A stretch of 64,000 nucleotides of DNA, taken from NCBI GenBank assembly GCA_049299895.1, contig JBAQYF010000031.1:1627-65626 (forward strand), given 5' to 3'. Made by a program: the position numbers and the translations under genes. This DNA is from Candidatus Altiarchaeia archaeon (GTDB lineage: Archaea; Altiarchaeota; Altiarchaeia; IMC4; QMZM01). Below, in pieces: positions 15,885 to 55,160 of the stretch (position 1 is the stretch's first letter; the number at the start of each line of letters is the position of its first letter). The notes under the pieces are model-generated. The model saw only the letters and a list, made by a program, of their open reading frames with translations. It did no database searches and was not told the DNA's origin.

Positions 15885-16904
15885 CTAACAGACCCGCGGA
15901 ACAGGATCCCCTGCCGGCGCCTCAAGAAGCCGCTCCCCGCCTATCGAGGTCTTCAGGATAACGCGCCCCGTCCCCTTTATTACCTCGCCGAACATGACCG
16001 CATCTCTCCCGTATTTCGTCTTCTTCAGTGCTTTCAGGACCGCCTCCGCATCACCGGGAGCAACGCCGAACACTGCCTTGCCCTCGTTTGCGACGGTCAA
16101 TGGATCGATCCCCAGCATCCCGGAAGCGGCGCGGACGCTTTCGCGAACAGGGATAAGATCCTCGTCCAAAAAGACGTCCACTTTGGCCTTGTGCGCCATC
16201 TCGTTTACGCAGCTTGCAAGTCCCCCACGAGTAGGATCCTTCAAAGCATGCAGGTCGTAACCAATCACTTTTTCCACCATGTGCCACAGAGGCGCGCAGT
16301 CGGATACAAGCGAGGTCTCGAACGCAATACCTTCGCGCCCGGCCAAAACCGCCATCCCATGATCCCCCACGGGTCCGTTTATTATTATCTTGTCCCCTGG
16401 ACGCAGGCCTGCATCGGATACGACCTTCTTTGCAACGCCCAGACCCGCAGTATTGATCAGGATGCCAATATCGCTCTCCACGACCTTTGTATCGCCGGTC
16501 ACGATAGGAACTCCTATCTCCCGGGAAACGGCGTCCATGGACTCAACTATCGTGTGCAGGTCATCTATAGGGAAGCCTGCGCCCACGATGAACGCGGACG
16601 AAATGGCAAGAGGCTTGCCGCCCATCATTGACAAATCATTAATAGTTCCGCACATGGAAAGTTTTCCTATGTCCCCGCCCGGAAAGAAGATCGGCTTAAC
16701 GGTGTACGAATCGGTCGTGAACACCAACTGCTCGCCCTTGAAGGGAATCGTCGCCGCATCGTCCAGTTCCGCAAGGCCGATCCCTCCCGCCACGTTCTTG
16801 TTGGAGATCTTTCCCAGCAGGACGGACAAAAGGCCGTGCATCGCTTCTCCCCCACCTCCGTGCACAAGTTTAACTCTTTGAGTACTATTGAAACTGTTTT
16901 TCAT
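15885..16904 (-). CDS. hypE: Hydrogenase maturation factor HypE
   Basis: VKLVHGGGGEAMHGLL N-terminal motif, AIR-synthase-like fold, C-terminal PVPRVC. True start probably at MKNSFNS (the ORF track begins at an upstream TTG). Confidence 0.85.
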   Translation of the reverse strand: MKNSFNSTQRVKLVHGGGGEAMHGLLSVLLGKISNKNVAGGIGLAELDDAATIPFKGEQLVFTTDSYTVKPIFFPGGDIGKLSMCGTINDLSMMGGKPLAISSAFIVGAGFPIDDLHTIVESMDAVSREIGVPIVTGDTKVVESDIGILINTAGLGVAKKVVSDAGLRPGDKIIINGPVGDHGMAVLAGREGIAFETSLVSDCAPLWHMVEKVIGYDLHALKDPTRGGLASCVNEMAHKAKVDVFLDEDLIPVRESVRAASGMLGIDPLTVANEGKAVFGVAPGDAEAVLKALKKTKYGRDAVMFGEVIKGTGRVILKTSIGGERLLEAPAGDPVPRVC

Positions 16905-16905
16905 T

Positions 16906-17028
16906 TCATTCAGATGCGTACTGAGGGGTTGAAAACCCCTCAAAACTCGTAGTGATGATCAACCTTTCAGAAGGTTGGTGCATAGCCGCCCCGCCGCCAT
17001 GTATCAGCTTAACCCGTTCGCCTTTCAT
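16906..17028 (-). pseudogene. 40-codon duplicate of the hypE 5' end between hypB and hypE (fragment or uORF)
   Basis: Tail of listed ORF 16906..17313: MKGERVKLIHGGGAAMHQPSE.. resembles the HypE N-terminus (VKLVHGGGGEAMHG). Its ATG overlaps the hypB stop (ATGA) and its stop is 1 nt before the hypE ATG. Confidence 0.4.
16923..16941 (-). promoter_or_regulatory. Perfect 8-bp stem hairpin GAGGGGTT-TTC-AACCCCTC at the hypE 5' junction
   Basis: Derived from listed ORF translations (..EGFSTPQ.. / MRGFQPL..). Lies in the transcript just upstream of the hypE start. Confidence 0.35.
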
Positions 17029-17678
17029 TTCCTCTTCTCTTTCTCTTTTATTATCCAGTCCGCGAATACGTCTATACCCTTGTCTTTGCGGATGCTCGTC
17101 ATAAAGACGTTCAATTTGGAATTGATATGCAGGGCGTCTTTTCGCATCTTCTCCGCGTCCGCGCCCACGGCTTCCGCGATGTCTATCTTGTTTATGACCG
17201 CGGCATCGGACGACACGAATATCATCGGGTGCTTCTCCACGGTGTCGTCTCCCTCGGACACGGAAACGATGGTCACGTTCAATTGAGTGCCGAGATCGAA
17301 ATCCACGGGACATATCAGGTTGCCCACGTTCTCAACGAATAGGATATCGACATCCGACAGGTCGAAATGATCGACCGCATGCTCCACAAGATGCGCGTCC
17401 AGATGGCACTCTTTCCCGGTGTTCACGCCGATCACAGGGATCCCGAGTTTCTTCAGGCGGTTCGCGTCAAGGTCGCTTATGATGTCTCCTGCTATCGCCG
17501 CAATCCGGTAGCCCTTGAGCTTTTTATGGAGTACCTCGATCATAGCAGTCTTCCCGGAGCCGATCGCGCCCATGAAATTTATCGCAAGGACTCCGGCTTC
17601 GTCGAATGTCTTCCGGTTGCGCTCTGCGATCTTCTTGTTTATCTCGAAAACGTCCTTACCCATGCCGATCACGTGCAT
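17025..17678 (-). CDS. hypB: Hydrogenase nickel-incorporation GTPase HypB
   Basis: P-loop GAIGSGKT, CH motif (GKECHLDAH), ENVGNLICP. Confidence 0.9.
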   Translation of the reverse strand: MHVIGMGKDVFEINKKIAERNRKTFDEAGVLAINFMGAIGSGKTAMIEVLHKKLKGYRIAAIAGDIISDLDANRLKKLGIPVIGVNTGKECHLDAHLVEHAVDHFDLSDVDILFVENVGNLICPVDFDLGTQLNVTIVSVSEGDDTVEKHPMIFVSSDAAVINKIDIAEAVGADAEKMRKDALHINSKLNVFMTSIRKDKGIDVFADWIIKEKEKRK

Positions 17679-19336: not shown

Positions 19337-19356
19337 TTTTATAATTATATAATTCT

Positions 19357-19377
19357 TAATGATTTATCATTATAATT
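19357..19377. promoter_or_regulatory. Shared promoter/operator element TAATGATTTATCATTATAATT in the hypC/hypF divergent intergenic
   Basis: Matches 22469..22489 at 20 of 21 positions. Imperfect palindrome TAATGAT..ATCATTA fused to a TATA-like ATTATAATT, about 17 nt upstream of the probable hypF ATG (19395). Confidence 0.55.
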
Positions 19378-24647: not shown

Positions 24648-25637
24648 ATGGCAGAAGCAAAAGAAAAGCTCAAAATCGCGATATGCAGGGGAGCTACTTG
24701 CTCGGGATGCGACATAGCGATACTCGACATACACGAGCGGCTCCCGGCGGTCCTGGAGAAGGCAGAGATAGTATATGCCCCCACCCTCATCGACGCGAAG
24801 AACTCGGACGTCGAGAACATGAAAGACGGATCTATAGACGTCTGCTTCTATCACGGCTGCGTGCGCGACTCGGACAACGAGGAGCTCGCGCACCTCCTGC
24901 GAAAGAAGTCCAAGATAATGATAGCCTTCGGCGCATGCGCCTGTTTCGGCGGGATATTCGGCCTCGCGAACGTGACGGACCGGGAGGGCATAATAGAAGA
25001 GGTATACAAGAATACGGCCTCCACCGAGAACCCGGAAGGAACGACACCCCAGACGGAGTACTGGGACAAAAAAGACCACCGGCTCACTCTTCCCGAATTA
25101 TACGACAGCGTCTACGCGCTTAATGACAAAGTCGACGTAGACTACTATGTGCCATTGTGCCCGCCGATAGCAGAGCAGATAATGGCCGCGCTCACGGCGA
25201 TAACTACGTGGAACCTCCCGCCGAAGGGAACTATAATCGCCTCGGAAAAAACGCTGTGCAGCGAATGCACCCGGACGAGATCCGCTGTCAGGAAGATAGC
25301 GAAGATACACAGGCCTCATGAGATAAAGATAGACCAGGAGAAATGCATGCTCGACCAGGGACTGCTATGCATGGGACCTGCTACGAGAGCCGGATGTGGT
25401 ACCATCTGCGTGAAGGCTAACGTGCCGTGCAGGGGATGCAGCGGACCCACGAAGGAGGCATTCGACCAGGGGGCGAACATGCTTGGACTTATAGCCACAA
25501 TCTACGGGATACCCGAGGAATCCCTGACGGAAGAAGACGTAAAGAAGATAATGAAGGAGATAAAGGACCCGCTTGGTACGTTCTACAGATTCACTCTGCC
25601 TAAGTCGATCCTAAAGAGAAAGAGGATGGAAAAATGA
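24648..25637 (+). CDS. mvhG: [NiFe]-hydrogenase small subunit (MvhG/VhuG type)
   Basis: IAICRGATCSGCDIA, GCVRDSD, FGACACFGG cluster motifs. Confidence 0.8.
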   Translation: MAEAKEKLKIAICRGATCSGCDIAILDIHERLPAVLEKAEIVYAPTLIDAKNSDVENMKDGSIDVCFYHGCVRDSDNEELAHLLRKKSKIMIAFGACACFGGIFGLANVTDREGIIEEVYKNTASTENPEGTTPQTEYWDKKDHRLTLPELYDSVYALNDKVDVDYYVPLCPPIAEQIMAALTAITTWNLPPKGTIIASEKTLCSECTRTRSAVRKIAKIHRPHEIKIDQEKCMLDQGLLCMGPATRAGCGTICVKANVPCRGCSGPTKEAFDQGANMLGLIATIYGIPEESLTEEDVKKIMKEIKDPLGTFYRFTLPKSILKRKRMEK

Positions 25638-26113
25638 TGGAGAAGAGAATATTTATGTATAGGGAAGACAATAGTCGATACATATCAATTTTAGATATAT
25701 GCATAGACTTTTATAAGACCAAAGTTACGTACAGATCATCCAAAACTGTGTTGTTATTATCCATCTCAGTTTCGTTTATAATTGCGCTTTTATCACTTTC
25801 GTGTAATAACATTATCGCTAATTTTCCCTTTATGCAGATAGTAATAATGATCACTATGATCATTTTAGGTGGGATTGCCTTTTCAGAAGCGTCTGATTTC
25901 GGAAGAGATTTTAAAACTTTGAGAAAACTACATAGAGCCAAGATTGAACCTGACCAATGGCGGCTAATTGTGATGTTTGATGAAGTAGGAATTAAGGAGG
26001 CAAATACCGAGAGGATATTAACCGTTGAAAATAATGATGGCTCAGGATTAATCGAGGGGGCAATTTTATTACTGCTTTGCTCTCTTTTAAAGAGTAGTCG
26101 ACATACAAAATGA
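25634..26113 (+). CDS. AT-rich hypothetical membrane protein inserted between the hydrogenase small and large subunit genes
   Basis: ATG overlaps the mvhG stop (ATGA). About 30% GC against about 50% flanks. Three predicted TM segments. No homology recognised. Confidence 0.4.
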   Translation: MMEKRIFMYREDNSRYISILDICIDFYKTKVTYRSSKTVLLLSISVSFIIALLSLSCNNIIANFPFMQIVIMITMIILGGIAFSEASDFGRDFKTLRKLHRAKIEPDQWRLIVMFDEVGIKEANTERILTVENNDGSGLIEGAILLLLCSLLKSSRHTK

Positions 26114-26126
26114 ACGACAAAAACGC

Positions 26127-26182
26127 ATCACCATCAACCCAGTCACAAGACTGGAGGGCCACCCAAAGATAGACCATCAACC
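26127..26182 (+). pseudogene. Decayed duplicate of the mvhA 5' coding end (translates ITINPVTRLEGHPKID..)
   Basis: About 75% nt identity to mvhA codons 9-26 (IIINPVTRLEGHAKIDIF). Stops after about 20 codons. Confidence 0.4.
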
Positions 26183-26253
26183 CTTTTGAGTTGGCGAAAC
26201 GGGCCACATACGCTAACGCTAGTGGCCCAGACGAAATAAACCAATAAAAGAAA

Positions 26254-27732
26254 ATGACTCACGAGAAGAAAAAAGAGATAATCATAAACCCTGTTACAAG
26301 GCTCGAAGGCCACGCGAAGATAGACATCTTCCTGAACGATTCGGGGAACGTGGAAGACGCCTATTTCCAGGTCATCGAGCTGCGGGGCTTTGAGAAGTTC
26401 TGCCAGGGCAGGCCTGCGGAAGAGATGCCCAGGATCGCTCCAAGGATATGCGGCGTCTGCCCTAATCCGCATCACATGGCTTCAGGGAAGGCTGTTGACA
26501 TGGTGTTCGGAGTCGAAGCAACGGAGACGGCAAAGAAACTGAGGGAACTGTCGCTCTGCGCGCACTACATGCACAGCCACATAGCGCACTTCTACGCGCT
26601 GGGTGGGCCGGATTTCATAATAGGCCCGGCGGCTGATCCTGCTGAGAGGAATATTGTTGGAGTCATAAACAAAGTGGGTGGAGAGATAGCAGGACAAGTA
26701 ATAACCGCCCGCGCATACGCACAAAGAATACAGCAGATAATAAGCGGAAGGGCGACTCACCCCATAAACAATCTTCCAGGAGGGCTTGCAAAACCCATAA
26801 CTTCAGAAGAGCAGAAGGAAATAGAGAAGATGAGTAAGACCCTTCTGGGCTTTGGCAAATTCACGCTGCAGATATTCGAAGACATCGTCCTCAAGAACAA
26901 GGATTACGTGGACATAATAACAGGAGACATATACCAACACAGGACGTATTATATGGGGACGGTTGACGCGAAGAACAAGGTCACATTCTACGACGGAGAC
27001 ATACGCGTCGTATCTCCCGAAGGAAAGGAGTATGAAAAATTCAGGGGTGAAAAATACCTGGACCACATAGCGGAACACGTGGAGCCCTGGACGTATCTCA
27101 AGTTCCCGTACCTGAAAAAGAACGGCTGGAAGGGCATAGTCGACGGAGCGGACTCTGGAGTATACAGGGTCGCCCCACTCGCCCGGCTGAACGCCGCGGA
27201 CGGGATGGCAACGCCTCTTGCAAACGAGGCATATGATAAGATGTACGAGACCCTCGGGGGAAAGCCCGTGCACGCGACACTCGCCATGCACTGGGCGAGG
27301 GTTATAGAGATAATGTATGCTGCGGAAAGGATAAAAGAACTCATAGAGGACCCGCAGATAACGGATACGGACGTCAGGAACATCCCCACAGACGTCGTCG
27401 GAGAAGGCATCGGACAAGTGGAAGCACCGCGAGGCACTTTATTCCATCATTACAAAACGGACGACGAAGGGATACTCACGAAGATAAACATCGTGGTCGC
27501 GACAGGGAACAACAACGCAGCGATATGCATGTCCGTGAAGCGCGCGGCAGAGAAGCTCATAAAGAACTGGAAAGTAGACGACGGCATACTCAACATGATA
27601 GAGATGGCATTCCGGGCATACGACCCGTGCTTCGCATGCGCGACGCACACGCTGCCGGGGCACATGCCACTTGAGATAAGGATATACGATGCGGAGAAGA
27701 AATTGTACAAGAGGATAACCAGATATGAATAA
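26254..27732 (+). CDS. mvhA: [NiFe]-hydrogenase large subunit (MvhA type)
   Basis: N-terminal RICGVCPNPH and C-terminal DPCFACATH Ni-Fe ligand motifs. Confidence 0.85.
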   Translation: MTHEKKKEIIINPVTRLEGHAKIDIFLNDSGNVEDAYFQVIELRGFEKFCQGRPAEEMPRIAPRICGVCPNPHHMASGKAVDMVFGVEATETAKKLRELSLCAHYMHSHIAHFYALGGPDFIIGPAADPAERNIVGVINKVGGEIAGQVITARAYAQRIQQIISGRATHPINNLPGGLAKPITSEEQKEIEKMSKTLLGFGKFTLQIFEDIVLKNKDYVDIITGDIYQHRTYYMGTVDAKNKVTFYDGDIRVVSPEGKEYEKFRGEKYLDHIAEHVEPWTYLKFPYLKKNGWKGIVDGADSGVYRVAPLARLNAADGMATPLANEAYDKMYETLGGKPVHATLAMHWARVIEIMYAAERIKELIEDPQITDTDVRNIPTDVVGEGIGQVEAPRGTLFHHYKTDDEGILTKINIVVATGNNNAAICMSVKRAAEKLIKNWKVDDGILNMIEMAFRAYDPCFACATHTLPGHMPLEIRIYDAEKKLYKRITRYE

Positions 27733-28610: not shown

Positions 28611-29485
28611 AAAACAAATATGCTTATTTCATCGGCTGCACGATACCATTCCGCGCCTCCAACTACGACCTTGCCACAAGGAAGGTTACGGAGTCGCTGG
28701 GAATAGAGCTTGTCGACCTCCCGGATGCGGGATGCTGCGGCCTGTATTTCGAGCTCATAAACGAGATGACGTATCTTTCCATGGCCGCCCGCGTGCTGTC
28801 GATGGCGGAAGAGAAGAAACTCGACCTCCTCGTACTATGCAACGGATGCAACGGCTCATTGTACCGGGCCAACAAGAAGCTGAAGGAGAACCCGGAACTA
28901 AAGGACAAAGTGAACGAAGTCCTGACTGAAGTAGGCCGCGAGTACAGGGGAACTATAGAAGTAAAGCACCTCATCCGTGTGCTGTACGAAGACATCGGGA
29001 TAGAGAAAATAAAAGAAAAGATCGCTAACCCCCTCACGAACGTGAAAGCCGCGGCGCACTACGGCTGCCACCTTTTGAAGCCTTCGGAAGAGATCATGTT
29101 CGACGATCCGAAAAATCCAGTAAGTTTGGACAGGCTAATCGAAGTAACGGGAGCAAAGTCGGTCGACTACTACGACAAGCTGCAGTGCTGCGGAGGATAC
29201 GTGCTGGCAGCGGACGCGAAGACCGCCTATAAGATGACTGGCGAGAAGCTTTCGCACGTCAAAGCGGCCGGTGCCGACATAATGATCACAGGCTGCCCGT
29301 TCTGCAACGTCATGTATGATGCTAACCAGAGGGCTGCGGAGACTGAGACAGGTCAGCAGTACAAGATACCGTGCCTGCATTATCCGCAGCTTCTGGCGCT
29401 TGCGATGGGGGTCGATCCGAAGGAATTGGGCTTCGAACAGAACAGGGTGAGGCCTGATATGAAACTGTTTATCAAATCTCCTTAA
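28607..29485 (+). CDS. hdrB: Heterodisulfide reductase subunit B-like (two CCG domains)
   Basis: GCTIPF, DAGCCGLY, CCGG, GCPFC motifs. Confidence 0.8.
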   Translation: MKNKYAYFIGCTIPFRASNYDLATRKVTESLGIELVDLPDAGCCGLYFELINEMTYLSMAARVLSMAEEKKLDLLVLCNGCNGSLYRANKKLKENPELKDKVNEVLTEVGREYRGTIEVKHLIRVLYEDIGIEKIKEKIANPLTNVKAAAHYGCHLLKPSEEIMFDDPKNPVSLDRLIEVTGAKSVDYYDKLQCCGGYVLAADAKTAYKMTGEKLSHVKAAGADIMITGCPFCNVMYDANQRAAETETGQQYKIPCLHYPQLLALAMGVDPKELGFEQNRVRPDMKLFIKSP

Positions 29486-29498
29486 GCTATAAAAAATA

Positions 29499-30770
29499 TC
29501 AGTTCGGCGCGTGGCCGGCCGGATTAGCCCATGAGTTTATCAGGTCTATCACTTCCCCTATACTCATTTCTCCAGTTACCCACTCGTTGATCCCTGATAA
29601 TACCTCTGACAATTCTACTATTTCACAAGGGGGCGAGTTCCCGGGCATAAGGCATGAGGCAGTTGTCGTGGATGTCGTACTGCTTGTCGAAGTCGTAGTG
29701 ACCATCGTGGTTGTGGATGTCGTACTGCTCGTAGACGTTGTCGTGAGGATCGTAGTAGTGGTTGTAGAAGTGGTTGTCGTAGTAGTGGTTGTGGAAGTAG
29801 TCGTCGTAGTGACGCCTTCTAGTACCAGAACGCCCCCGTCGTTGTCAGTTACTTGTGTTCCCTGCCCGGCATATAGTTTTCCATTATAGGATTCAAGCGC
29901 ATATACAGTCTTGTTGCCGGCGTAGCTTGTCTGCCAGCCAACCCCATTGTAGACTATTATTCCTCCGACACCAAGCCCTGCATACAGCTTTCCGCCAAAG
30001 CTCTTCAATCCATAGACAGTGTGGCTGCTTGGATATGTAGTATACCAGTTTGTCCCGTCGAGGACGAAGATGCCTTGATTCGTTCCCACGTAGAGCTTTC
30101 CGTCATATTCTTCCATGGATTCGACGAACTCAGTACCATTGTGAACTATTTCCCAGGAGGTGCCGTTGAATGCGATCACGTTGTTGTGGGTGAGCCAAAC
30201 AGTTTCTATCCCGGCATAAAGTTTACCATTATACGCCTTTAGTGCATAGACCCTTCCCTCTGGAGAGTAAGCTATAGCCCAATTTGTTCCGTTAAAATAG
30301 ATAATTGCAGGAATTTCAGAGTAACCGGTCAGGCTACCTGAGTACAGCTTCCCATCATACACTTCAAGGGATGCAGACAGAGAGCAACCGGGTACATCAT
30401 AAGTCCAGACTGCGCTTAAATTTTGGCTCCATCCGCTGCCGTTATATGCGAGTATATCGCTGTAAGGATCCCCATAAATTTCAGATGCATAAAGCCTGCC
30501 GTCGTATTCTTTGATAGCCATGATAAGAGAACCTGCAAGGGTCGCATACGACGTCCGCCAGGAGCTGCCGTTAAAGGCGTAGATATTGCTGGTCCGTTTA
30601 CCGTCTTCCTGATACCCGCCGGCATACAGACTCCCCTGATACGCCCCAAGAGAGTAGATGCTGACGTTGCCTTTGTCATATATACGAGTCCATGTGTCCG
30701 CATACCCGCAAAAAGGAAGCACCATCAATAATAAAAGGCCCCCCCCCAGTAGAAGATTTTTAGTTTCCAT
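29499..30770 (-). CDS. Secreted beta-propeller-like repeat protein with a long Thr/Ser-rich linker
   Basis: Signal peptide, about 7 YxGKLYAG..NGTxW repeats, more than 60 aa of Thr/Ser low complexity encoded by degenerate nucleotide repeats at about 29640-29810. Confidence 0.5.
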   Translation of the reverse strand: METKNLLLGGGLLLLMVLPFCGYADTWTRIYDKGNVSIYSLGAYQGSLYAGGYQEDGKRTSNIYAFNGSSWRTSYATLAGSLIMAIKEYDGRLYASEIYGDPYSDILAYNGSGWSQNLSAVWTYDVPGCSLSASLEVYDGKLYSGSLTGYSEIPAIIYFNGTNWAIAYSPEGRVYALKAYNGKLYAGIETVWLTHNNVIAFNGTSWEIVHNGTEFVESMEEYDGKLYVGTNQGIFVLDGTNWYTTYPSSHTVYGLKSFGGKLYAGLGVGGIIVYNGVGWQTSYAGNKTVYALESYNGKLYAGQGTQVTDNDGGVLVLEGVTTTTTSTTTTTTTTSTTTTTILTTTSTSSTTSTTTMVTTTSTSSTTSTTTASCLMPGNSPPCEIVELSEVLSGINEWVTGEMSIGEVIDLINSWANPAGHAPN

Positions 30771-31031
30771 CGTATAGAATATTATAAACTCAGGTAAAAA
30801 AGCATGTAATGCCCTGGCTGATTCAACCTACTACTCTTGAACTCAAAAGAGAGTTCAGTCCAAAGAATCTGGACTTCGGGCAGAACAGGCGACTCCAACA
30901 GGAATCGTACCCCCAGATGCTCTTCGTTTATGGCTTGAGGCCGGATATGAAAATGTTCCTAAGGAAGGTTTGAATATTCTTCTCTTTTTTTACTTTGTTT
31001 CTCTAAGATACGACGCAACGGTGTATCTGCC

Positions 31032-36658: not shown

Positions 36659-36756
36659 ATTCCGCCTAAAAGCCCGTTCTCCAATAAGTTTTTTAAGGTA
36701 ATCGCTTAAACTATATAACATATGTTTATATTTAGTCCCCTGGATTAGTCCTGCCC

Positions 36757-37158
36757 ATGAAAACAATTGTTTTGATAGTCGACGACAACAAAGACATCCT
36801 TTTCGCAGTAAAGGAGTCCCTGGAGTCGAACCCGTCCTACAGCGTGGAATGCGCCGGAAGCGGAAAAGAATGCCTGGAAAAGATGAAGTCCTGCAAGCCG
36901 GATATCATACTGATGGATATAATGATGCCGGAAATGGACGGCTTTGAAGTTGTGGCCAAGATCAAATCAGACGAACAGACCAAGGACATACCTGTGGTAT
37001 TCCTCACCGCCAAGACCGACAAACTCAGCAAAGGCATAGGGAAAGCCATGTCAGTAGACTACATAGAGAAACCCTTTGACCCTGCGGACCTGAAGGGAAG
37101 GATAGAGAAAATAATCAAGAGGAGGCATATGTATGAAAATAGCGGTCCTGGCGGTTGA
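36757..37158 (+). CDS. Single-domain response regulator (CheY-like receiver)
   Basis: LIVDDNKD, phospho-acceptor D in ILMDIMMPEMDG, conserved T and K. Confidence 0.8.
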   Translation: MKTIVLIVDDNKDILFAVKESLESNPSYSVECAGSGKECLEKMKSCKPDIILMDIMMPEMDGFEVVAKIKSDEQTKDIPVVFLTAKTDKLSKGIGKAMSVDYIEKPFDPADLKGRIEKIIKRRHMYENSGPGG

Positions 37159-37516
37159 CGACAGCAAGGACGTCCTGTTTTCTATTAAAGAGTCCCTGGA
37201 ATCAGACAACAATTTTTCCGTGTCCTGCGCGGAAAGCGGAAAAGAGTGCCTGAACAGATTGAAGCGCTGCAAGCCGGACGTCATACTAATGGATATAATG
37301 ATGCCGGAAATGGACGGCTGGGAAGTTGTCGCAAGGATCAAGGAGAACAAAGACCTGGCCAAAATACCCTTGATATACCTGACAGGCAAAACAGACAGCC
37401 TCTCAAGGGAATTAGGCTCCCTGTCATCCGAGGATTACATTGACAAACCGTTCGATCCCGCGGATCTGCGGGCCAGGATCTTTTTGGCAGTAACAAAAAA
37501 GGAAGTGAACAAATAG
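37133..37516 (+). CDS. Single-domain response regulator, recent tandem duplicate of the previous gene
   Basis: Long stretches of nucleotide identity to 36757..37158 (for example CAAGCCGGA..ATGGATATAATGATGCCGGAAATGGACGGCT). Confidence 0.8.
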   Translation: MKIAVLAVDDSKDVLFSIKESLESDNNFSVSCAESGKECLNRLKRCKPDVILMDIMMPEMDGWEVVARIKENKDLAKIPLIYLTGKTDSLSRELGSLSSEDYIDKPFDPADLRARIFLAVTKKEVNK

Positions 37517-37538
37517 GCCAGTATTCTCCGGGGTTTTT

Positions 37539-40500
37539 ATGGACATCAGAAGCAAGACCTTCGCAGTCTTGGCATTGGTTTTTTTATGCATAATGGGGGC
37601 AGTCTATTTCTCTGCCGAAAACCTGCTTTTCAAGGGCTTCGAATCCGTTGAAATAAGCGACATGCAGGTGAATACTTACCGCGTGTACTCGGTCCTTTCC
37701 AGCAAATACTCCGCATTGGAGGTAATGACCGGGGATTGGGCCACGTCGAATGAGGCATATGAGTTTTTAGAGAACAGGGACGCCGGATACATAAAAGAGA
37801 ACCTTGACGACAAGGTCTTTGAAACAAACAGGATAAACCTCATTTTGTTCTACAACGCCTCCGGAAGCATATTATGGGGCAAGGCGTATGATTACAAGAA
37901 GTACGAGGAGCTGCCTATCCCCGACAGCCTGTTGTACATGCAGCCAAACGACCCCCTGATAAAACTCGACGCCAAAGACGCGAACACGGGAATATTAGTC
38001 ACTTCAAGCGGCCCCATGTACATATCCTCAAAACCCGTATTGACCGTGAAAGGCGAAGGGCCCCCTGATGGAACCCTCATAATCGGCCGCTTCCTCGACG
38101 CAGAAGAACGAGGCGACATATCCTGGATAACAGGGCTCCCGGTTTCTATTTACGCCGTATGGGACAAGGACCTCCCCCCGGATTACAAGGATGCCAGAAC
38201 GCATATTTCAGATGAGAGCCCAGTGTACGTTCGCCTGACCGGGAACGCATCCTTGAACGGATACGGAGTGATAAAGGACGTTTACGGAAAAGCAGCCATG
38301 ATATACCGGACGGAAAGCCCGAGAACTGTTTATCCTGTCGGCAAGGCCACCACAAGAGACCTCCTCGTGCTGGTGCTATTATCCAGCGTATTCTCCTGGC
38401 TGGTCATGCTGTTCTTCTTTGACCGAACAGTCCTCTTCAGGCTGTCCAAGATCGTCGGGGGCGTCATGAAAATAGGGGAAACAGGCAACCTCGAAACAAG
38501 GATCTCAGACAAAGGGAAAGATGAATTAAACGACCTTGCAGGGGCTATCAACACGATGCTTTCAAGGATAAACGATTCGGAAAAGGCGTTGAAAACATCA
38601 GAAGAGAAATATCACAGCCTCGTGGACAACATAAACGACGTCATATACGCGCTGGACAAGAAAGGATATTTTATTTATGTCAGCCCGACAGTAGAACGGC
38701 TCTTTGGATATAAAACAGAACAAATCATCGGAATCCATTTCTCAAGATTTATCTACCCGGAGGACTTGCATGACCTGATGGCAAGCTTTGAAAAGGTTCT
38801 CGCAGGAAAACTGGAGCCATACGAGTTTCGGATGACAGATATATCGGGTTCTATCCATTATATACGCAGCTCCAGCAGAGCCATAATAGAGAAAGACAAT
38901 GTGAGAGGCATATCCGGGATACTGACCGATGTCACCGAACGCAAGAAAGCCGAGGCCTCGCTCAAACAGAGCGAGGAAAAATATCACAGCCTCGTGGACA
39001 ACATAAACGACGTCATATACACGCTGAACGAAAAAGGAAAATTTACTTACGTCAGCCCGGCCGTTAAAAGAGCTTTGAAATACGAACCCAGGGAGATCAT
39101 CGGCAAGAGCTTTTCAGACATTGCGCATCCTGACGACCTGCAGGGGATGATAGACAACCTCCAGAGGACTCTGTTAGGGGAATTCGAACCCTATGAGTTC
39201 AGGGTAATAGACGGGGCCGGGGCCACGCGTTATCTGCGAAGCAGCGGCAAGGCCTTATTCGAGCGAGGCGTAGTCAAGGGGATCACCGGGATATTTACCG
39301 ACGTCACAGCCAGAAGAAAAGCAGAAAACGAACTACTTGAAACGACAAATTACCTGGAGAGTCTGATAAATTCAGCCAACGCACCCATCATCGTCTGGGA
39401 CCAGGGCTACCGGATAACGAGATTCAACCGCGCCTTTGAGTATCTCACGGGATATACCGCCGGCGAAGTCATAGGAAAGGATCTGAGCCTTCTATTCCCA
39501 AAAGAGAAGGAGGAAGAATCCATGTATAAGATCGCGAGGACCCTGAAAGAAGAGCGCTGGGAATCTGTGGAGATATCCATCCAGTGCAAGAACGGCGAGA
39601 TGCGCCTCGCGCTTTGGAATTCCGCCCACATTTATGACAAAGACGGAAAGACCCTGAGGGCAACTATCGCCCAGGGAGTCGATATCACAGAACGCAAGTA
39701 TACGGAAAAACGGCTCAGCCAGGAATTGAATAAGTTCAAGGTTCTCTATGACCTGGCTTTGAACATGTCGGAAAAGACATTGGAAGAGAACCTGAGATTT
39801 ATCGTGGAAAAAAGCCGCGAGATCCTGTCTACCGATACCGCATATATCGGACTATGCGACGACGAATACGGGGAAGTGCACATGCATACCGTTTCAGGCA
39901 TCAGGACCGAGTCTTTCAAACAGATGAAAGTCCCGTACGGAAAGGAGTTGGGCGGCCTGGTAATGCAGACGCGCAGAGGCTACATAGTAGACGACTATTT
40001 CAAGGACAAAAAGATATCGCACCCGGTCAACGGGATAATATCCGATGAAGGGCTTCTTTCAGGCATGGCGGTACCAATACAGGCCGGCCCTACGAACCTG
40101 GGAGTGCTGTATGTATTCAACCGCGAAAAGACCGGATTCACAGGCGAGGACCTTGCAACCCTCACGCTGCTCGGAAACCTCGCAGCCGTGGAGATAACCA
40201 ATAAGCGATCGCAGCAGGCTTTGCAGGATTCGAAGCAGCGTCTGGCGGACATAATAGACTTCCTCCCGGATGCAATGTTCGTAATAGACGGGAACGGAAG
40301 GGTCATAGCCTGGAACAAAGCGATAGAGGAACTCACAGGGCTCAAGGCGGACGATATCGTCGGCAGAGGGGATTATGATTATGCCCTCCCGTTCTACGGC
40401 AAGAAAAGGCCGCTCTTGATTGATCTAATCGGCAGGCCCGGGGATGAGATAAAAGCCCTTGGATACGCCGAAGTAGAGCGGGCCGGGGACACATTATTCG

Positions 40501-54615: not shown

Positions 54616-54825
54616 AACATATAAATTAGAGCATTATACTGCACTAATTCGGCCAAATTAGTGCACTATACTGCACTATTTTAGAAAGGTCTTAAAAAAG
54701 CATACCCAGCAACCCCTATTTTTTTGGATTTTAATCATCTAACGGCAGTGGTACCCTTGGGTACCACCCGGGGAGGGTCAGGTCCCAGGGAATGCAGGGC
54801 AGTGCCTGCAAATACCAAAAACTGG

Positions 54826-54845
54826 GGAGGGGCGGTAGCCCCTCC
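54826..54845 (-). terminator. Hairpin GGAGGGGC-GGTA-GCCCCTCC followed on the minus strand by a T5 tract, 3' of gene 54855..55160
   Basis: Perfect 8-bp GC-rich stem plus a T-run immediately downstream of the minus-strand stop codon. Confidence 0.4.
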
Positions 54846-54854
54846 GCGGTTTGG

Positions 54855-55160
54855 TTAGAAAAACTCGTTCAGCGGCTTTGCCGGCAGCTTCGTATAGCTT
54901 CTGCCTGCTTCGATCTTTGTTGAGTCCACAAGTTTTTTCATCAGCTTGTTGTTCTCTTTCTGCAGTTCCATCAGTGGGTGCATGTCTATCCTTGCGGGGA
55001 CGGACGTTTTGGTCTCCATTAGCGCAGTCAGCTTGTCCATCTTTCTGTTCTGCTCCCTTACGGCTTCTATGTGGCTCTTTAACAGCTTGTTTGTCTCTTT
55101 CTGCGCTTCGAGGATCTTGTTTAGGGCGTTTTTTTCGCCGTTTTCGGTTTTTTGAGGCAT
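54855..55160 (-). CDS. Small coiled-coil hypothetical protein
   Basis: ORF with heptad-like Lys/Glu/Leu-rich sequence. Confidence 0.4.
   Translation of the reverse strand: MPQKTENGEKNALNKILEAQKETNKLLKSHIEAVREQNRKMDKLTALMETKTSVPARIDMHPLMELQKENNKLMKKLVDSTKIEAGRSYTKLPAKPLNEFF

What the first reader, a model, noticed from the sequence alone, without database searches (positions are those of the whole stretch)
16902..17028. Partial tandem duplication of the hypE 5' end creating a 40-codon uORF with a strong hairpin at the hypB/hypE junction
Between the hypB stop and the hypE start lies an ORF, MKGERVKLIHGGGAAMHQPSE..., whose first 18 residues mirror the HypE N-terminus (VKLVHGGGGEAMHG). Its ATG overlaps the hypB stop, and its stop is 1 nt before the hypE ATG. 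A perfect 8-bp GC hairpin (GAGGGGTT/AACCCCTC) sits inside its 3' end. This could be a decayed duplication, or a translational-coupling/attenuation device tuning HypE dosage relative to HypB.
Basis: seen in the sequence. Interest (0 to 1): 0.5.

Follow-up and report, generated by a model that had tools for sequence, protein, structure and literature searches.

The report
Displaced hypE start left as uORF
Between hypB and hypE of this Altiarchaeia genome lies the gene's original start, cut off by a 142-base insertion that a 98%-identical sister strain lacks; it is mainly a recombination scar, although the leftover 40-codon reading frame probably still passes ribosomes on to the relocated hypE start.

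Summary
On the minus strand a 40-codon ORF (17028-16906) starts on the hypB stop (ATGA) and ends 1 nt before the hypE ATG (16904).

It is not an in-place tandem duplication. A 98%-identical HypE (L050) has a plain hypB/hypE overlap, and its first 17 codons are the uORF's. Relative to L050 the window carries 142 extra bases: a 73-nt two-hairpin spacer plus a second hypE 5' end. That second copy is only 69% identical to the first, with differences mostly at third codon positions. At least 13 other related loci have plain junctions.

A homologous spacer lies between a hypE 5' fragment and hypE in a distant lineage (L025/L052). One hairpin stem there is unchanged and the other differs by two compensatory pairs. 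The peptide and the stop/start spacing are not conserved.

A second locus in the window (hydrogenase large subunit, 26111-26253) has the same fragment-spacer-gene layout with an unrelated spacer.

Best reading: a recombination scar or laterally exchanged leader cassette. The old start likely acts as a termination-reinitiation relay. Attenuation is unsupported. Modest interest.

The parts
17025..17678 (-). hypB (217 aa, CobW/HypB/UreG GTPase). Its TGA (17027-17025) overlaps the uORF ATG.
17031..17034 (-). SD-like GAGG, 2 nt upstream of the uORF ATG. It is the ancestral hypE ribosome-binding context AAGAGGAAATGA, also present in L003, L021, L023, L044 and L050.
16906..17028 (-). 40-codon uORF (pseudo-start of hypE), including its TGA stop at 16908-16906.
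16978..17028 (-). Copy U: the original hypE 5' end (17 codons). It is identical to the hypE start of the 98% relative L050 except for loss of one GGC and GAG to GCG.
16836..16977 (-). 142-nt segment absent from L050 (spacer plus second hypE 5' end), bounded by a 6-nt ATGCAC direct repeat.
16905..16977 (-). Spacer S1 (73 nt, GC 0.44). It is homologous to the spacer upstream of hypE in L025/L052.
16960..16977 (-). Hairpin A, CAACCTT-CTGA-AAGGTTG. The stem is identical in L025, where two extra hairpins sit in its loop.
16948..16966 (-). 19-nt block AAGGTTGATCATCACTACG, identical in L025 (19/19) and unique in the window.
16922..16942 (-). Its L025 counterpart TGTGGTG...CACCACA differs by two compensatory pair changes.
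16836..16904 (-). Copy D: the second, foreign-looking hypE 5' end (23 codons, MKNSFNSTQRVKLVHGGGGEAMH). It is A/T-rich at the start, has no SD upstream, and is fused in frame to the rest of hypE.
15885..16904 (-). hypE as now expressed (339 aa; equals NCBI MFZ2456848.1, Candidatus Altiarchaeia archaeon MAG).
26111..26253 (+). Parallel case, not part of the finding. A decayed, frameshifted copy of the hydrogenase large-subunit 5' end (about 26111-26173) is followed by an 80-nt spacer with a hairpin at 26201-26228, just upstream of the full gene (26254-27732).

Best explanation
The hypB-hypE interval is a displaced-start scar.

Origin. In the ancestral state hypE started on the hypB stop (ATGA), as in the 98%-identical strain L050 and in at least 13 other Altiarchaeales loci. 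In this lineage a 142-nt segment now separates the old start from the gene. The segment consists of a 73-nt non-coding spacer with two hairpins plus the first 23 codons of a diverged hypE allele.

The segment most likely arrived by recombination with DNA from another Altiarchaeales lineage that already carried the fragment-spacer-hypE arrangement. A homology-anchored illegitimate event is the alternative. Because hypE-like sequence flanks the cassette on both sides, ordinary homologous recombination can gain it, lose it or pass it between strains.

Consequence (inferred). The old start keeps its SD-like GAGG and its overlap with the hypB stop, so it is very probably still translated. Its frame stays open through the spacer and closes at TGA 1 nt before the new hypE ATG, which has no SD. 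Ribosomes finishing the 40-codon ORF can therefore reinitiate on hypE. This bridges the otherwise uncoupling 123-nt gap between the hypB stop and that ATG.

The hairpins are inherited parts of the spacer. They are unwound by ribosomes translating the uORF and do not occlude the hypE start. At most they affect mRNA stability or processing.

Status of each step. Shown: the anatomy, the indel relative to L050, the different origin of the two copies, and the homologous spacer in a second lineage. Inferred: the direction and mechanism of the event, translation of the uORF, and the relay.
For: L050 carries a plain junction, and its hypE begins MKGERVKLIHGGGGEAMH, which is the uORF start.

blastn and the alignment delimit a 142-nt insertion bounded by ATGCAC repeats.

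Copy U matches L050 at 37/39. U against D is 27/39, with 9 of 12 differences at third codon positions. D's best match is 36/42, to L022.

Junctions are plain in L001, L002, L003, L019, L021, L022, L023, L024, L026, L041, L043 and L044 and on the P0013 contig.

The spacer is homologous to the L025/L052 spacer. No shuffle of 2000 reached the observed score. Blocks of 11/11 and 19/19 nt are identical, the hairpin A stem is unchanged, and hairpin B carries two compensatory pair changes.

GC content is 0.44 for the spacer and for copy D, against 0.52 for hypB and 0.57 for hypE.

The operon is chain-coupled: hypC/D -8, hypD/A +1, hypA/B +9, hypB/uORF -4, uORF/hypE +1. No SD motif lies in the 20 nt before the hypE ATG.

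Only 2.3% of 20,000 dinucleotide shuffles of the spacer give a stop within -4 to +3 of the ATG, and 51% stop 20 nt or more upstream.

Termination-reinitiation coupling in archaea needs overlaps or very short gaps and is nearly lost at about 20 nt (PMC6728339, PMC10666635).

A second fragment-spacer-gene scar with an unrelated spacer sits upstream of the hydrogenase large-subunit gene. Relative L055 has a plain +1 junction there.

One-sided homologous integration with remnants of the displaced gene is a documented process (PMC3240628, PMC5361080).
Against: No donor sequence was found, so the direction of the event is not proven. It could be a gain in this lineage or a loss in L050 by recombination between U and D.

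The left edge of the spacer (CAACCTTCTGA) is the same nucleotide in the window and in L025. Two independent illegitimate joins would not give that. It points to one ancestral event followed by spread, or to a defined element end.

The relay geometry is not conserved. In L025 the uORF is in another frame, stops 36 nt before a TTG start, and is not preceded by hypB.

The new hypE start lies in an A-rich, weakly structured stretch that might initiate on its own.

The 2.3% figure is post hoc and rests on one sequence. No expression data exist.
Confidence: 0.55

Rival explanations
1. Same origin, but functionally inert. The uORF is a neutral remnant on its way to decay. hypE is translated by independent initiation at its A/U-rich, unstructured new start. 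The tight stop/start spacing is coincidence or inherited.
For: Copy U already carries two lesions in the most conserved motif. The peptide beyond the hypE-like part is not conserved, and the stop/start spacing differs in L025. The second scar, at the hydrogenase large-subunit gene, has an 80-nt gap between the fragment's stop and the gene start, with no relay. The hypE start region is A-rich with little predicted structure.
Against: The uORF keeps the full ancestral initiation context (GAGG plus the ATGA overlap). The +1 stop/start spacing arises in only 2.3% of shuffles. No SD precedes the new ATG in an operon that is otherwise tightly coupled.
Confidence: 0.25
2. The spacer is a selected structured RNA leader for hypE, acting in mRNA stabilisation, processing or regulation. 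It is kept by selection in several Altiarchaeales lineages, and the uORF and hairpins are working parts of it.
For: Identical blocks of 19 and 11 nt and an unchanged hairpin A stem are shared between lineages whose HypE proteins are only about 71% identical. Hairpin B keeps pairing through two double changes. Folding is significant: z = -3.6 in the window and -3.5 for the L025 version.
Against: Only two lineages carry it, and each has a close sister with a plain junction (L050 at 98% amino-acid identity; L043 at 92% nucleotide identity). The high conservation may therefore simply reflect recent transfer. There is no Rfam match, no terminator or anti-terminator logic and no occlusion of the start codon. 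With two sequences, covariation evidence is thin.
Confidence: 0.12
3. The spacer is a small non-autonomous mobile element, for example derived from the ends of an IS200/IS605-type element. It inserted near the hypE start, and the duplicated hypE 5' end is a by-product of insertion or repair.
For: The left boundary is the same nucleotide in both lineages. The spacer is a two-hairpin unit. In L025 its hairpin loops and the upstream 320 nt are packed with perfect hairpin modules. Those modules resemble the terminal hairpins of an IS200-like element in relative L001.
Against: There is a single copy in 64 kb and none at other places in the 56 loci held. There are no terminal inverted repeats. IS200/IS605 elements make no target duplication, and no known prokaryotic element makes 30-50-nt duplications of variable length. 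The window's two copies are 69% identical, not identical as a fresh target duplication would be. No tnpA is present in the window. There were no hits in the viral, plasmid or phage collections.
Confidence: 0.08
4. In-place tandem duplication of the hypB/hypE junction followed by divergence.
For: Two hypE 5' copies lie head-to-tail 142 nt apart.
Against: The copies are 69% identical while the flanks are 95-98% identical to L050. The differences lie at third codon positions, so they arose under coding constraint. The spacer shows no similarity to the hypB 3' end or to hypE.
Confidence: 0.03
5. Assembly artefact: a chimeric join of two strain variants.
For: The Logan contigs of run SRR28062479 break at 17027/17056 with a k-1 overlap, which points to a branch in the assembly graph near the junction.
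Against: Contig L054 runs through the whole cassette at 100% identity with the MAG. The spacer has a homologue in two independent assemblies of another lineage (L025 and L052). All reading frames are coherent.
Confidence: 0.02

Closest known systems
Remnants left by displacement through homology-facilitated illegitimate recombination or homeologous recombination (for example orphan Rhs/CDI 3' ends and orphan T6SS immunity genes; PMC5361080, PMC3240628)
   Same: An incoming diverged allele arrives with its own flanking DNA. It is anchored by homology inside the gene. A piece of the resident gene is kept next to it as an orphan fragment. Close strains differ by presence or absence.
   Different: Here the orphan is a 5' end, not a 3' end, and only 17 codons long. 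The incoming tract is tiny (142 nt). The host is an archaeon. No donor has been identified. A homologous spacer at the same place in a second lineage suggests later spread of one cassette by ordinary homologous recombination.
Translational coupling by termination-reinitiation at overlapping or abutting gene pairs (ATGA, TGATG; Huber et al., PMC6728339, PMC10666635)
   Same: There is an ATGA overlap with the upstream gene and a stop 1 nt before the next start, in an operon whose other junctions are -8, +1 and +9.
   Different: The intermediate ORF is not a gene but a gene remnant acting as a relay. Whether it is translated is untested. The related cassette in L025 lacks the tight spacing.
Leader-peptide transcription attenuation (trp-type) and uORF-controlled hairpins
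   Same: A short ORF with a stable hairpin inside its 3' part lies upstream of a gene.
   Different: There is no terminator (no T-run), no alternative pairing, no regulatory codons and no conservation of the peptide. The hairpin does not mask the start.
Partial gene duplicates at attachment sites of integrated elements
   Same: A native truncated gene end and a replacement end brought by incoming DNA flank the inserted sequence.
   Different: Only 73 nt lie between the copies. There is no integrase and no identical core, only the 6-nt ATGCAC repeat.
REP/BIME clusters and palindrome-associated elements mobilised by IS200/IS605-family Y1 transposases
   Same: L025 carries perfect GC-rich hairpins with short A/T loops, clustered and nested, that resemble the end hairpins of an IS200-like element in L001.
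   Different: The window's spacer hairpins have other loops, occur once, and lie between gene-fragment copies. Such elements do not duplicate their target.

Membership tests
In-place tandem duplication | The copies are as similar to each other as the age of the event allows, that is at least as similar as the flanks are to the nearest strain. | tested here: not met
   U against D is 27/39 (69%), while the flanks are 95-98% identical to L050.
In-place tandem duplication | The sequence between the copies is itself a copy of adjacent DNA (the hypB 3' end). | tested here: not met
   Local alignment of the spacer to hypB and to hypE scored no better than shuffles (379/500 and 496/500 shuffles scored at least as high).
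Recombination or insertion scar (indel polymorphism with an orphan gene fragment) | A closely related genome lacks the segment and has an intact plain junction. | tested here: met
   L050 (HypE 98% identical) has the ATGA junction, and the window carries 142 nt more. At least 13 further plain junctions were seen.
Recombination or insertion scar (indel polymorphism with an orphan gene fragment) | One copy is native and the other is of different ancestry. | tested here: met
   U matches L050 at 37/39. D matches L050 at 29/42, and its best match is L022 at 36/42. Differences show a third-position bias. GC is lower (0.44) than in the flanking genes.
Recombination or insertion scar (indel polymorphism with an orphan gene fragment) | An identified donor and microhomology at the illegitimate joint. 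| tested here: inconclusive
   Only a 6-nt ATGCAC repeat bounds the segment. No donor was found.
Termination-reinitiation relay | The start overlaps the upstream stop, and the stop lies within a few nt of the downstream start. | tested here: met
   ATGA at 17028-17025, and TGA-A-ATG at 16908-16902.
Termination-reinitiation relay | The geometry is conserved in related copies. | tested here: not met
   In L025 the uORF is in another frame, stops 36 nt before a TTG start, and has no hypB upstream.
Termination-reinitiation relay | The uORF is translated, and downstream synthesis depends on it. | not testable with these tools
   This needs ribosome profiling or reporter fusions.
Transcription attenuator or intrinsic terminator | A GC-rich hairpin followed by a T-run (an oligo-T signal in archaea), with alternative pairing. 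| tested here: not met
   No terminator-like site on either strand between 16700 and 17200. The hairpin is followed by CAGTACGC.
Known RNA families (Rfam 15) | A match to a covariance model. | tested here: not met
   Nothing beyond chance-level matches (E > 0.8) in the window region or in L025, and no gathering-score hit anywhere in the window.
Archaeal bulge-helix-bulge intron | A helix, 3-nt bulge, 4-bp helix, 3-nt bulge, helix motif that joins the two copies in frame. | tested here: not met
   Only weak matches with 2-bp flanks, as expected by chance. None sat at equivalent sites in both the window and L025.
MITE or IS200/IS605-derived element | Multiple copies, defined ends (inverted repeats or subterminal hairpins next to a fixed target), and a transposase in the genome. 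| tested here: inconclusive
   One copy in 64 kb and none at other sites in the loci held. No tnpA in the window. However, the left edge is identical in two lineages, and IS200-like hairpins occur in relatives. The rest of the genome could not be searched.

The most novel reading that the evidence does not exclude
The fragment-plus-spacer unit may be a small, laterally spreading 'start-displacing' leader cassette of Altiarchaeales hydrogenase-maturation operons. In this reading it is a structured RNA or DNA module with a conserved two-hairpin core. It uses the hypE-like sequence on both sides to move between genomes by recombination, uncouples hypE from hypB, and serves as a landing pad for nested perfect-hairpin modules of IS200/REP type, as seen in L025. 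That would make it a selected or selfish element, not a one-off scar.
Probability: 0.13. Interest if true: 0.6.

Novelty: new member of a known kind. Interest (0 to 1): 0.3.

Why it matters
This is a cautionary case. What looks like a designed uORF-and-hairpin regulator is mainly the footprint of recombination between diverged strains. Comparison with a 98%-identical sister genome shows this directly.

It also illustrates how a tightly coupled archaeal operon can tolerate displacement of a start codon. The orphaned start can keep ribosomes flowing to the new one.

If the spacer proves to be a recurrent, structured cassette, it would point to an undescribed small element in an uncultivated archaeal phylum. 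Two such scars occur within 10 kb, both in hydrogenase-related operons, which suggests frequent inter-lineage recombination at these loci.

Tried and rejected
- **Rfam scans** of the region, of L025 and of the whole window found nothing. No tRNA or tmRNA genes were found.
- **Terminator and promoter scan** found nothing.
- **Bulge-helix-bulge intron** that would splice the old start onto the gene: only chance-level motifs.
- **C/D-box sRNA or anti-SD mimicry**, checked by eye: no consistent boxes, so dropped.
- **Spacer as a copy of the hypB 3' end or of hypE sequence**: no similarity beyond shuffles.
- **Similarity between the hypE spacer and the hydrogenase-locus spacer**: it looked suggestive by eye but is not significant (246 of 2000 shuffles reach the score).
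- **Spacer core in viral contigs, plasmids and phages**: no hit.
- **uORF peptide in the 5.8-billion-protein set**: no candidate.
- **Exact look-ups of the uORF and of HypE**: not on record. Searches used start coordinates that differ from the 339-aa annotated product. One search used the correct protein and still found nothing. The protein was identified instead through its cluster.
- **Short HypE calls of 318-319 aa** (P0013, P0014), suspected to hide more insertions: these are non-ATG starts or contig ends.
- **Sharp change of divergence at the junction relative to L050**: not seen. The last 300 nt on the left are 96-100% identical.
- **Partial 3'-end duplicates downstream of genes in the window**: none beyond a paralogue pair.
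Full report
**Anatomy**

The minus strand of the window carries hypC (19336-19124), hypD (19131-18052), hypA (18050-17688), hypB (17678-17025) and hypE (16904-15885). hypF is divergent on the plus strand, and nikR lies nearby.

Its ATG (17028-17026) overlaps the hypB TGA. It has 40 codons and its TGA is at 16908-16906. One base follows, and then the hypE ATG at 16904. Residues 5-17 (RVKLIHGGGAAMH) mirror HypE residues 10-23 (RVKLVHGGGGEAMH).

The hairpin is real: TGAGGGGTT/AACCCCTCA at 16942-16922. A second perfect hairpin, CAACCTT/AAGGTTG at 16977-16960, lies just upstream of it. The 85-nt stretch that contains the spacer folds better than all 200 shuffles (z = -3.6). The window holds only 21 perfect hairpins with stems of 7 bp or more.

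**Source organism and assemblies**

The HypE protein is NCBI MFZ2456848.1 from a Candidatus Altiarchaeia MAG, on a contig of 160,990 nt. The closest genomes are Altiarchaeales MAGs.

Two Logan contigs from run SRR28062479 are 100% identical to the window. One of them (L054) runs from 17056 through the whole junction into hypE. The junction is therefore not peculiar to one assembly. The two contigs overlap by k-1 at 17027-17056, which indicates a branch in the assembly graph there.

**The decisive comparison**

A JGI contig (L050) encodes a HypE that is 98% identical and 334 aa long. It begins MKGERVKLIHGGGGEAMHGLL, which is the uORF's N-terminus, and its ATG overlaps the hypB stop.

blastn and the alignment show that the window equals L050 plus 142 nt (16977-16836), bounded by a 6-nt ATGCAC repeat. 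The 51 nt upstream of that segment (copy U) are L050's hypE start, apart from the loss of one GGC codon and a GAG to GCG change. Both changes fall inside the conserved HGGGGEAMH motif.

The extra segment consists of two parts:
- a 73-nt spacer (S1), and
- a second hypE 5' end (copy D, 69 nt, MKNSFNSTQRVKLVHGGGGEAMH), fused in frame to the rest of hypE.

The rest of hypE is again 98% identical to L050.

**Not an in-place duplication**

U and D share only 27 of 39 compared positions, and 9 of the 12 differences are at third codon positions. U matches L050 at 37/39. D matches L050 at 29/42, and its best match among all relatives is 36/42, to L022.

The copies therefore diverged as functional alleles in separate lineages and were brought together recently. 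U has had time for only two lesions. S1 has no detectable similarity to hypB or hypE. S1 and D both have GC 0.44, against 0.52-0.57 for the flanking genes.

The junction is plain, with an overlap or a few nt and no fragment, in L001, L002, L003, L019, L021, L022, L023, L024, L026, L041, L043, L044 and L050, and by gene coordinates on the P0013 contig.

**A related cassette in another lineage**

L025 (JGI) and L052 (ENA, 99.6% identical to L025) encode a HypE about 71% identical to the window's. They also carry a hypE 5' fragment (MEEERIKLIHG...), a spacer, and then hypE.

Their spacer is homologous to S1. No shuffle of 2000 reached the local alignment score. The shared features are:
- the left edge CAACCTTCTGA (11/11 identical);
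- the hairpin A stem, unchanged;
- the block AAGGTTGATCATCACTACG (19/19 identical);
- the hairpin B position, where the stem reads TGTGGTG/CACCACA instead of TGAGGGG/CCCCTCA, which is two compensatory pair changes and no broken pair;
- ACGCATC just before the hypE start.

In L025, extra perfect hairpins are nested in both loops. A sister contig (L043, 92% nucleotide identity from the start codon onward) has a plain hypB-hypE junction.

Beyond the hypE-like part, the L025 uORF is in a different frame. It stops 36 nt before a TTG start and is not preceded by hypB. Neither the peptide nor the stop/start geometry is conserved. What is conserved is nucleotide sequence and hairpin architecture.

Both carrying lineages have close plain-junction sisters, and the spacer is better conserved than the gene. 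Recent lateral exchange is therefore at least as likely as selection. The cassette is flanked by hypE-like sequence on both sides, so homologous recombination can insert, delete or transfer it with variable crossover points. This would explain why D is foreign in the window while both copies look native in L025. The shared left edge argues for one founding event rather than two independent illegitimate joins.

**A second scar in the same window**

I compared the N-termini of 105 long ORFs with their own upstream 400 nt. One further case appeared besides a pair of paralogous response-regulator genes.

Upstream of the [NiFe] hydrogenase large-subunit gene (26254-27732) lies a frameshifted copy of that gene's 5' end (...KRITINPVTRLEGHPKID, 26111-26173). 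An 80-nt spacer with a hairpin (26201-26228) follows. A relative that is 90% identical (L055) has the small- and large-subunit genes 1 nt apart. The window has 625 extra nt there (25626-26250), including an AT-rich 159-codon ORF bounded by 7-nt AAAATGA repeats.

Here the upstream fragment resembles the 5' end of another lineage (L056, 85% over 60 nt). The gene's own start matches L055 at 47/48. Again the differences are mostly at third codon positions.

The two spacers are not significantly similar: 246 of 2000 shuffles reach the score. The architecture therefore recurs but the element does not. This favours a general process, recombination between diverged alleles that leaves 5' orphan fragments, over a device dedicated to hypE.

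**How it probably works now**

The operon is chain-coupled: hypC/D -8, hypD/A +1, hypA/B +9, and ancestrally hypB/hypE -4.

The insertion moved the hypE ATG so that 123 nt now separate it from the hypB stop. In archaea, termination-reinitiation coupling is almost lost at about 20 nt (PMC10666635; PMC6728339). The new ATG has no SD-like motif in the 20 nt before it.

The old start keeps GAGG and the ATGA overlap, so it should be translated whenever hypB is. Its frame runs through the spacer and ends 1 nt before the new ATG. Only 2.3% of 20,000 dinucleotide shuffles of the spacer give a stop within -4 to +3 of the ATG, and 51% stop 20 nt or more upstream.

I therefore consider a relay the most likely current role: hypB to uORF to hypE. 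It is inferred, not shown.

The hairpins lie inside the uORF and would be unwound by translating ribosomes. They are not followed by a T-run and do not pair with the hypE start. Attenuation is unsupported. An effect on mRNA stability or processing cannot be excluded.

**Rejected or unresolved**

No Rfam family, intron motif, terminator or mobile-element hallmark was found. No copies turned up in the viral, plasmid or phage collections.

The origin of the spacer and the donor of copy D remain unknown.

The hairpin modules nested in the L025 version resemble the end hairpins of an IS200-like element (Pfam Y1_Tnp) in relative L001. This keeps a mobile-element contribution open for L025 but does not explain the duplicated gene end.

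**Verdict**

The finding is real but is best read as a recent recombination or insertion scar that displaced the hypE start and left the original start as a probably translated relay ORF. It is a new example of known processes: orphan gene fragments after displacement, and termination-reinitiation coupling. A minority possibility is that the spacer is a recurrent structured cassette. Interest is modest.

Noticed in passing
window 25626-26253 (+): Second fragment-spacer-gene scar. A frameshifted copy of the hydrogenase large-subunit 5' end (26111-26173) and an 80-nt spacer with a hairpin (26201-26228) precede the full gene. Relative L055 has the small and large subunit genes 1 nt apart.
   Followed up: yes
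window 25631-26113 (+): An AT-rich 159-codon ORF (GC of the 625-nt insert is 0.37; only a weak ABC-2-type membrane-protein hit) sits between the hydrogenase small and large subunit genes. It is bounded by 7-nt AAAATGA direct repeats at 25631-25637 and 26107-26113, and both ends keep ATGA stop/start overlaps.
   Followed up: partly
L025 1-330 (same in L051 and L052): An extraordinarily hairpin-dense non-coding stretch upstream of the hypE fragment. About a dozen perfect 5-9-bp hairpins are enclosed by a 15-bp long-range helix. MFE is -159 kcal/mol and z = -10.2. There is no Rfam match. The same hairpin types are nested in the spacer loops.
   Followed up: partly
L001 6160-6820: An IS200-like Y1 transposase gene (Pfam PF01797) is flanked by stem-TTTA-stem hairpins that resemble the L025 hairpin modules. 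The L025 cluster may therefore be REP/PATE-like. No such transposase is present in the window.
   Followed up: partly
L049 1470-1580: This metagenome contig joins a GC-rich KdpD-like gene, about 105 nt of an Altiarchaeales hypE 5' end (including the GAGGAAATG context) and the middle of a glucose-6-phosphate isomerase gene. It is probably an assembly chimera.
   Followed up: partly
window 17027-17056: The Logan contigs of SRR28062479 end and begin here with a 30-nt (k-1) overlap. This points to a branch in the assembly graph, that is strain variation, at the end of hypB.
   Followed up: no
window 54640-54860 (+): A non-coding stretch holds four perfect hairpins with stems of 7-10 bp within about 200 nt. 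There is no Rfam hit.
   Followed up: no
window 29470-30935: About 1.47 kb is absent from relative L055. It encodes, on the minus strand, a 423-aa secreted repeat protein with a long Thr/Ser-rich tract.
   Followed up: no
window about 36700-37550 (+): Two adjacent paralogous response-regulator-like genes form a genuine tandem gene duplication. They were the top hit of the N-terminus-versus-upstream scan.
   Followed up: no
window 19337-19366 (-): The hypC ATG is directly preceded by an A/T-only stretch (TTATATAATTATAAAA). This suggests a TATA-like promoter and a leaderless or very short-leader operon transcript.
   Followed up: no
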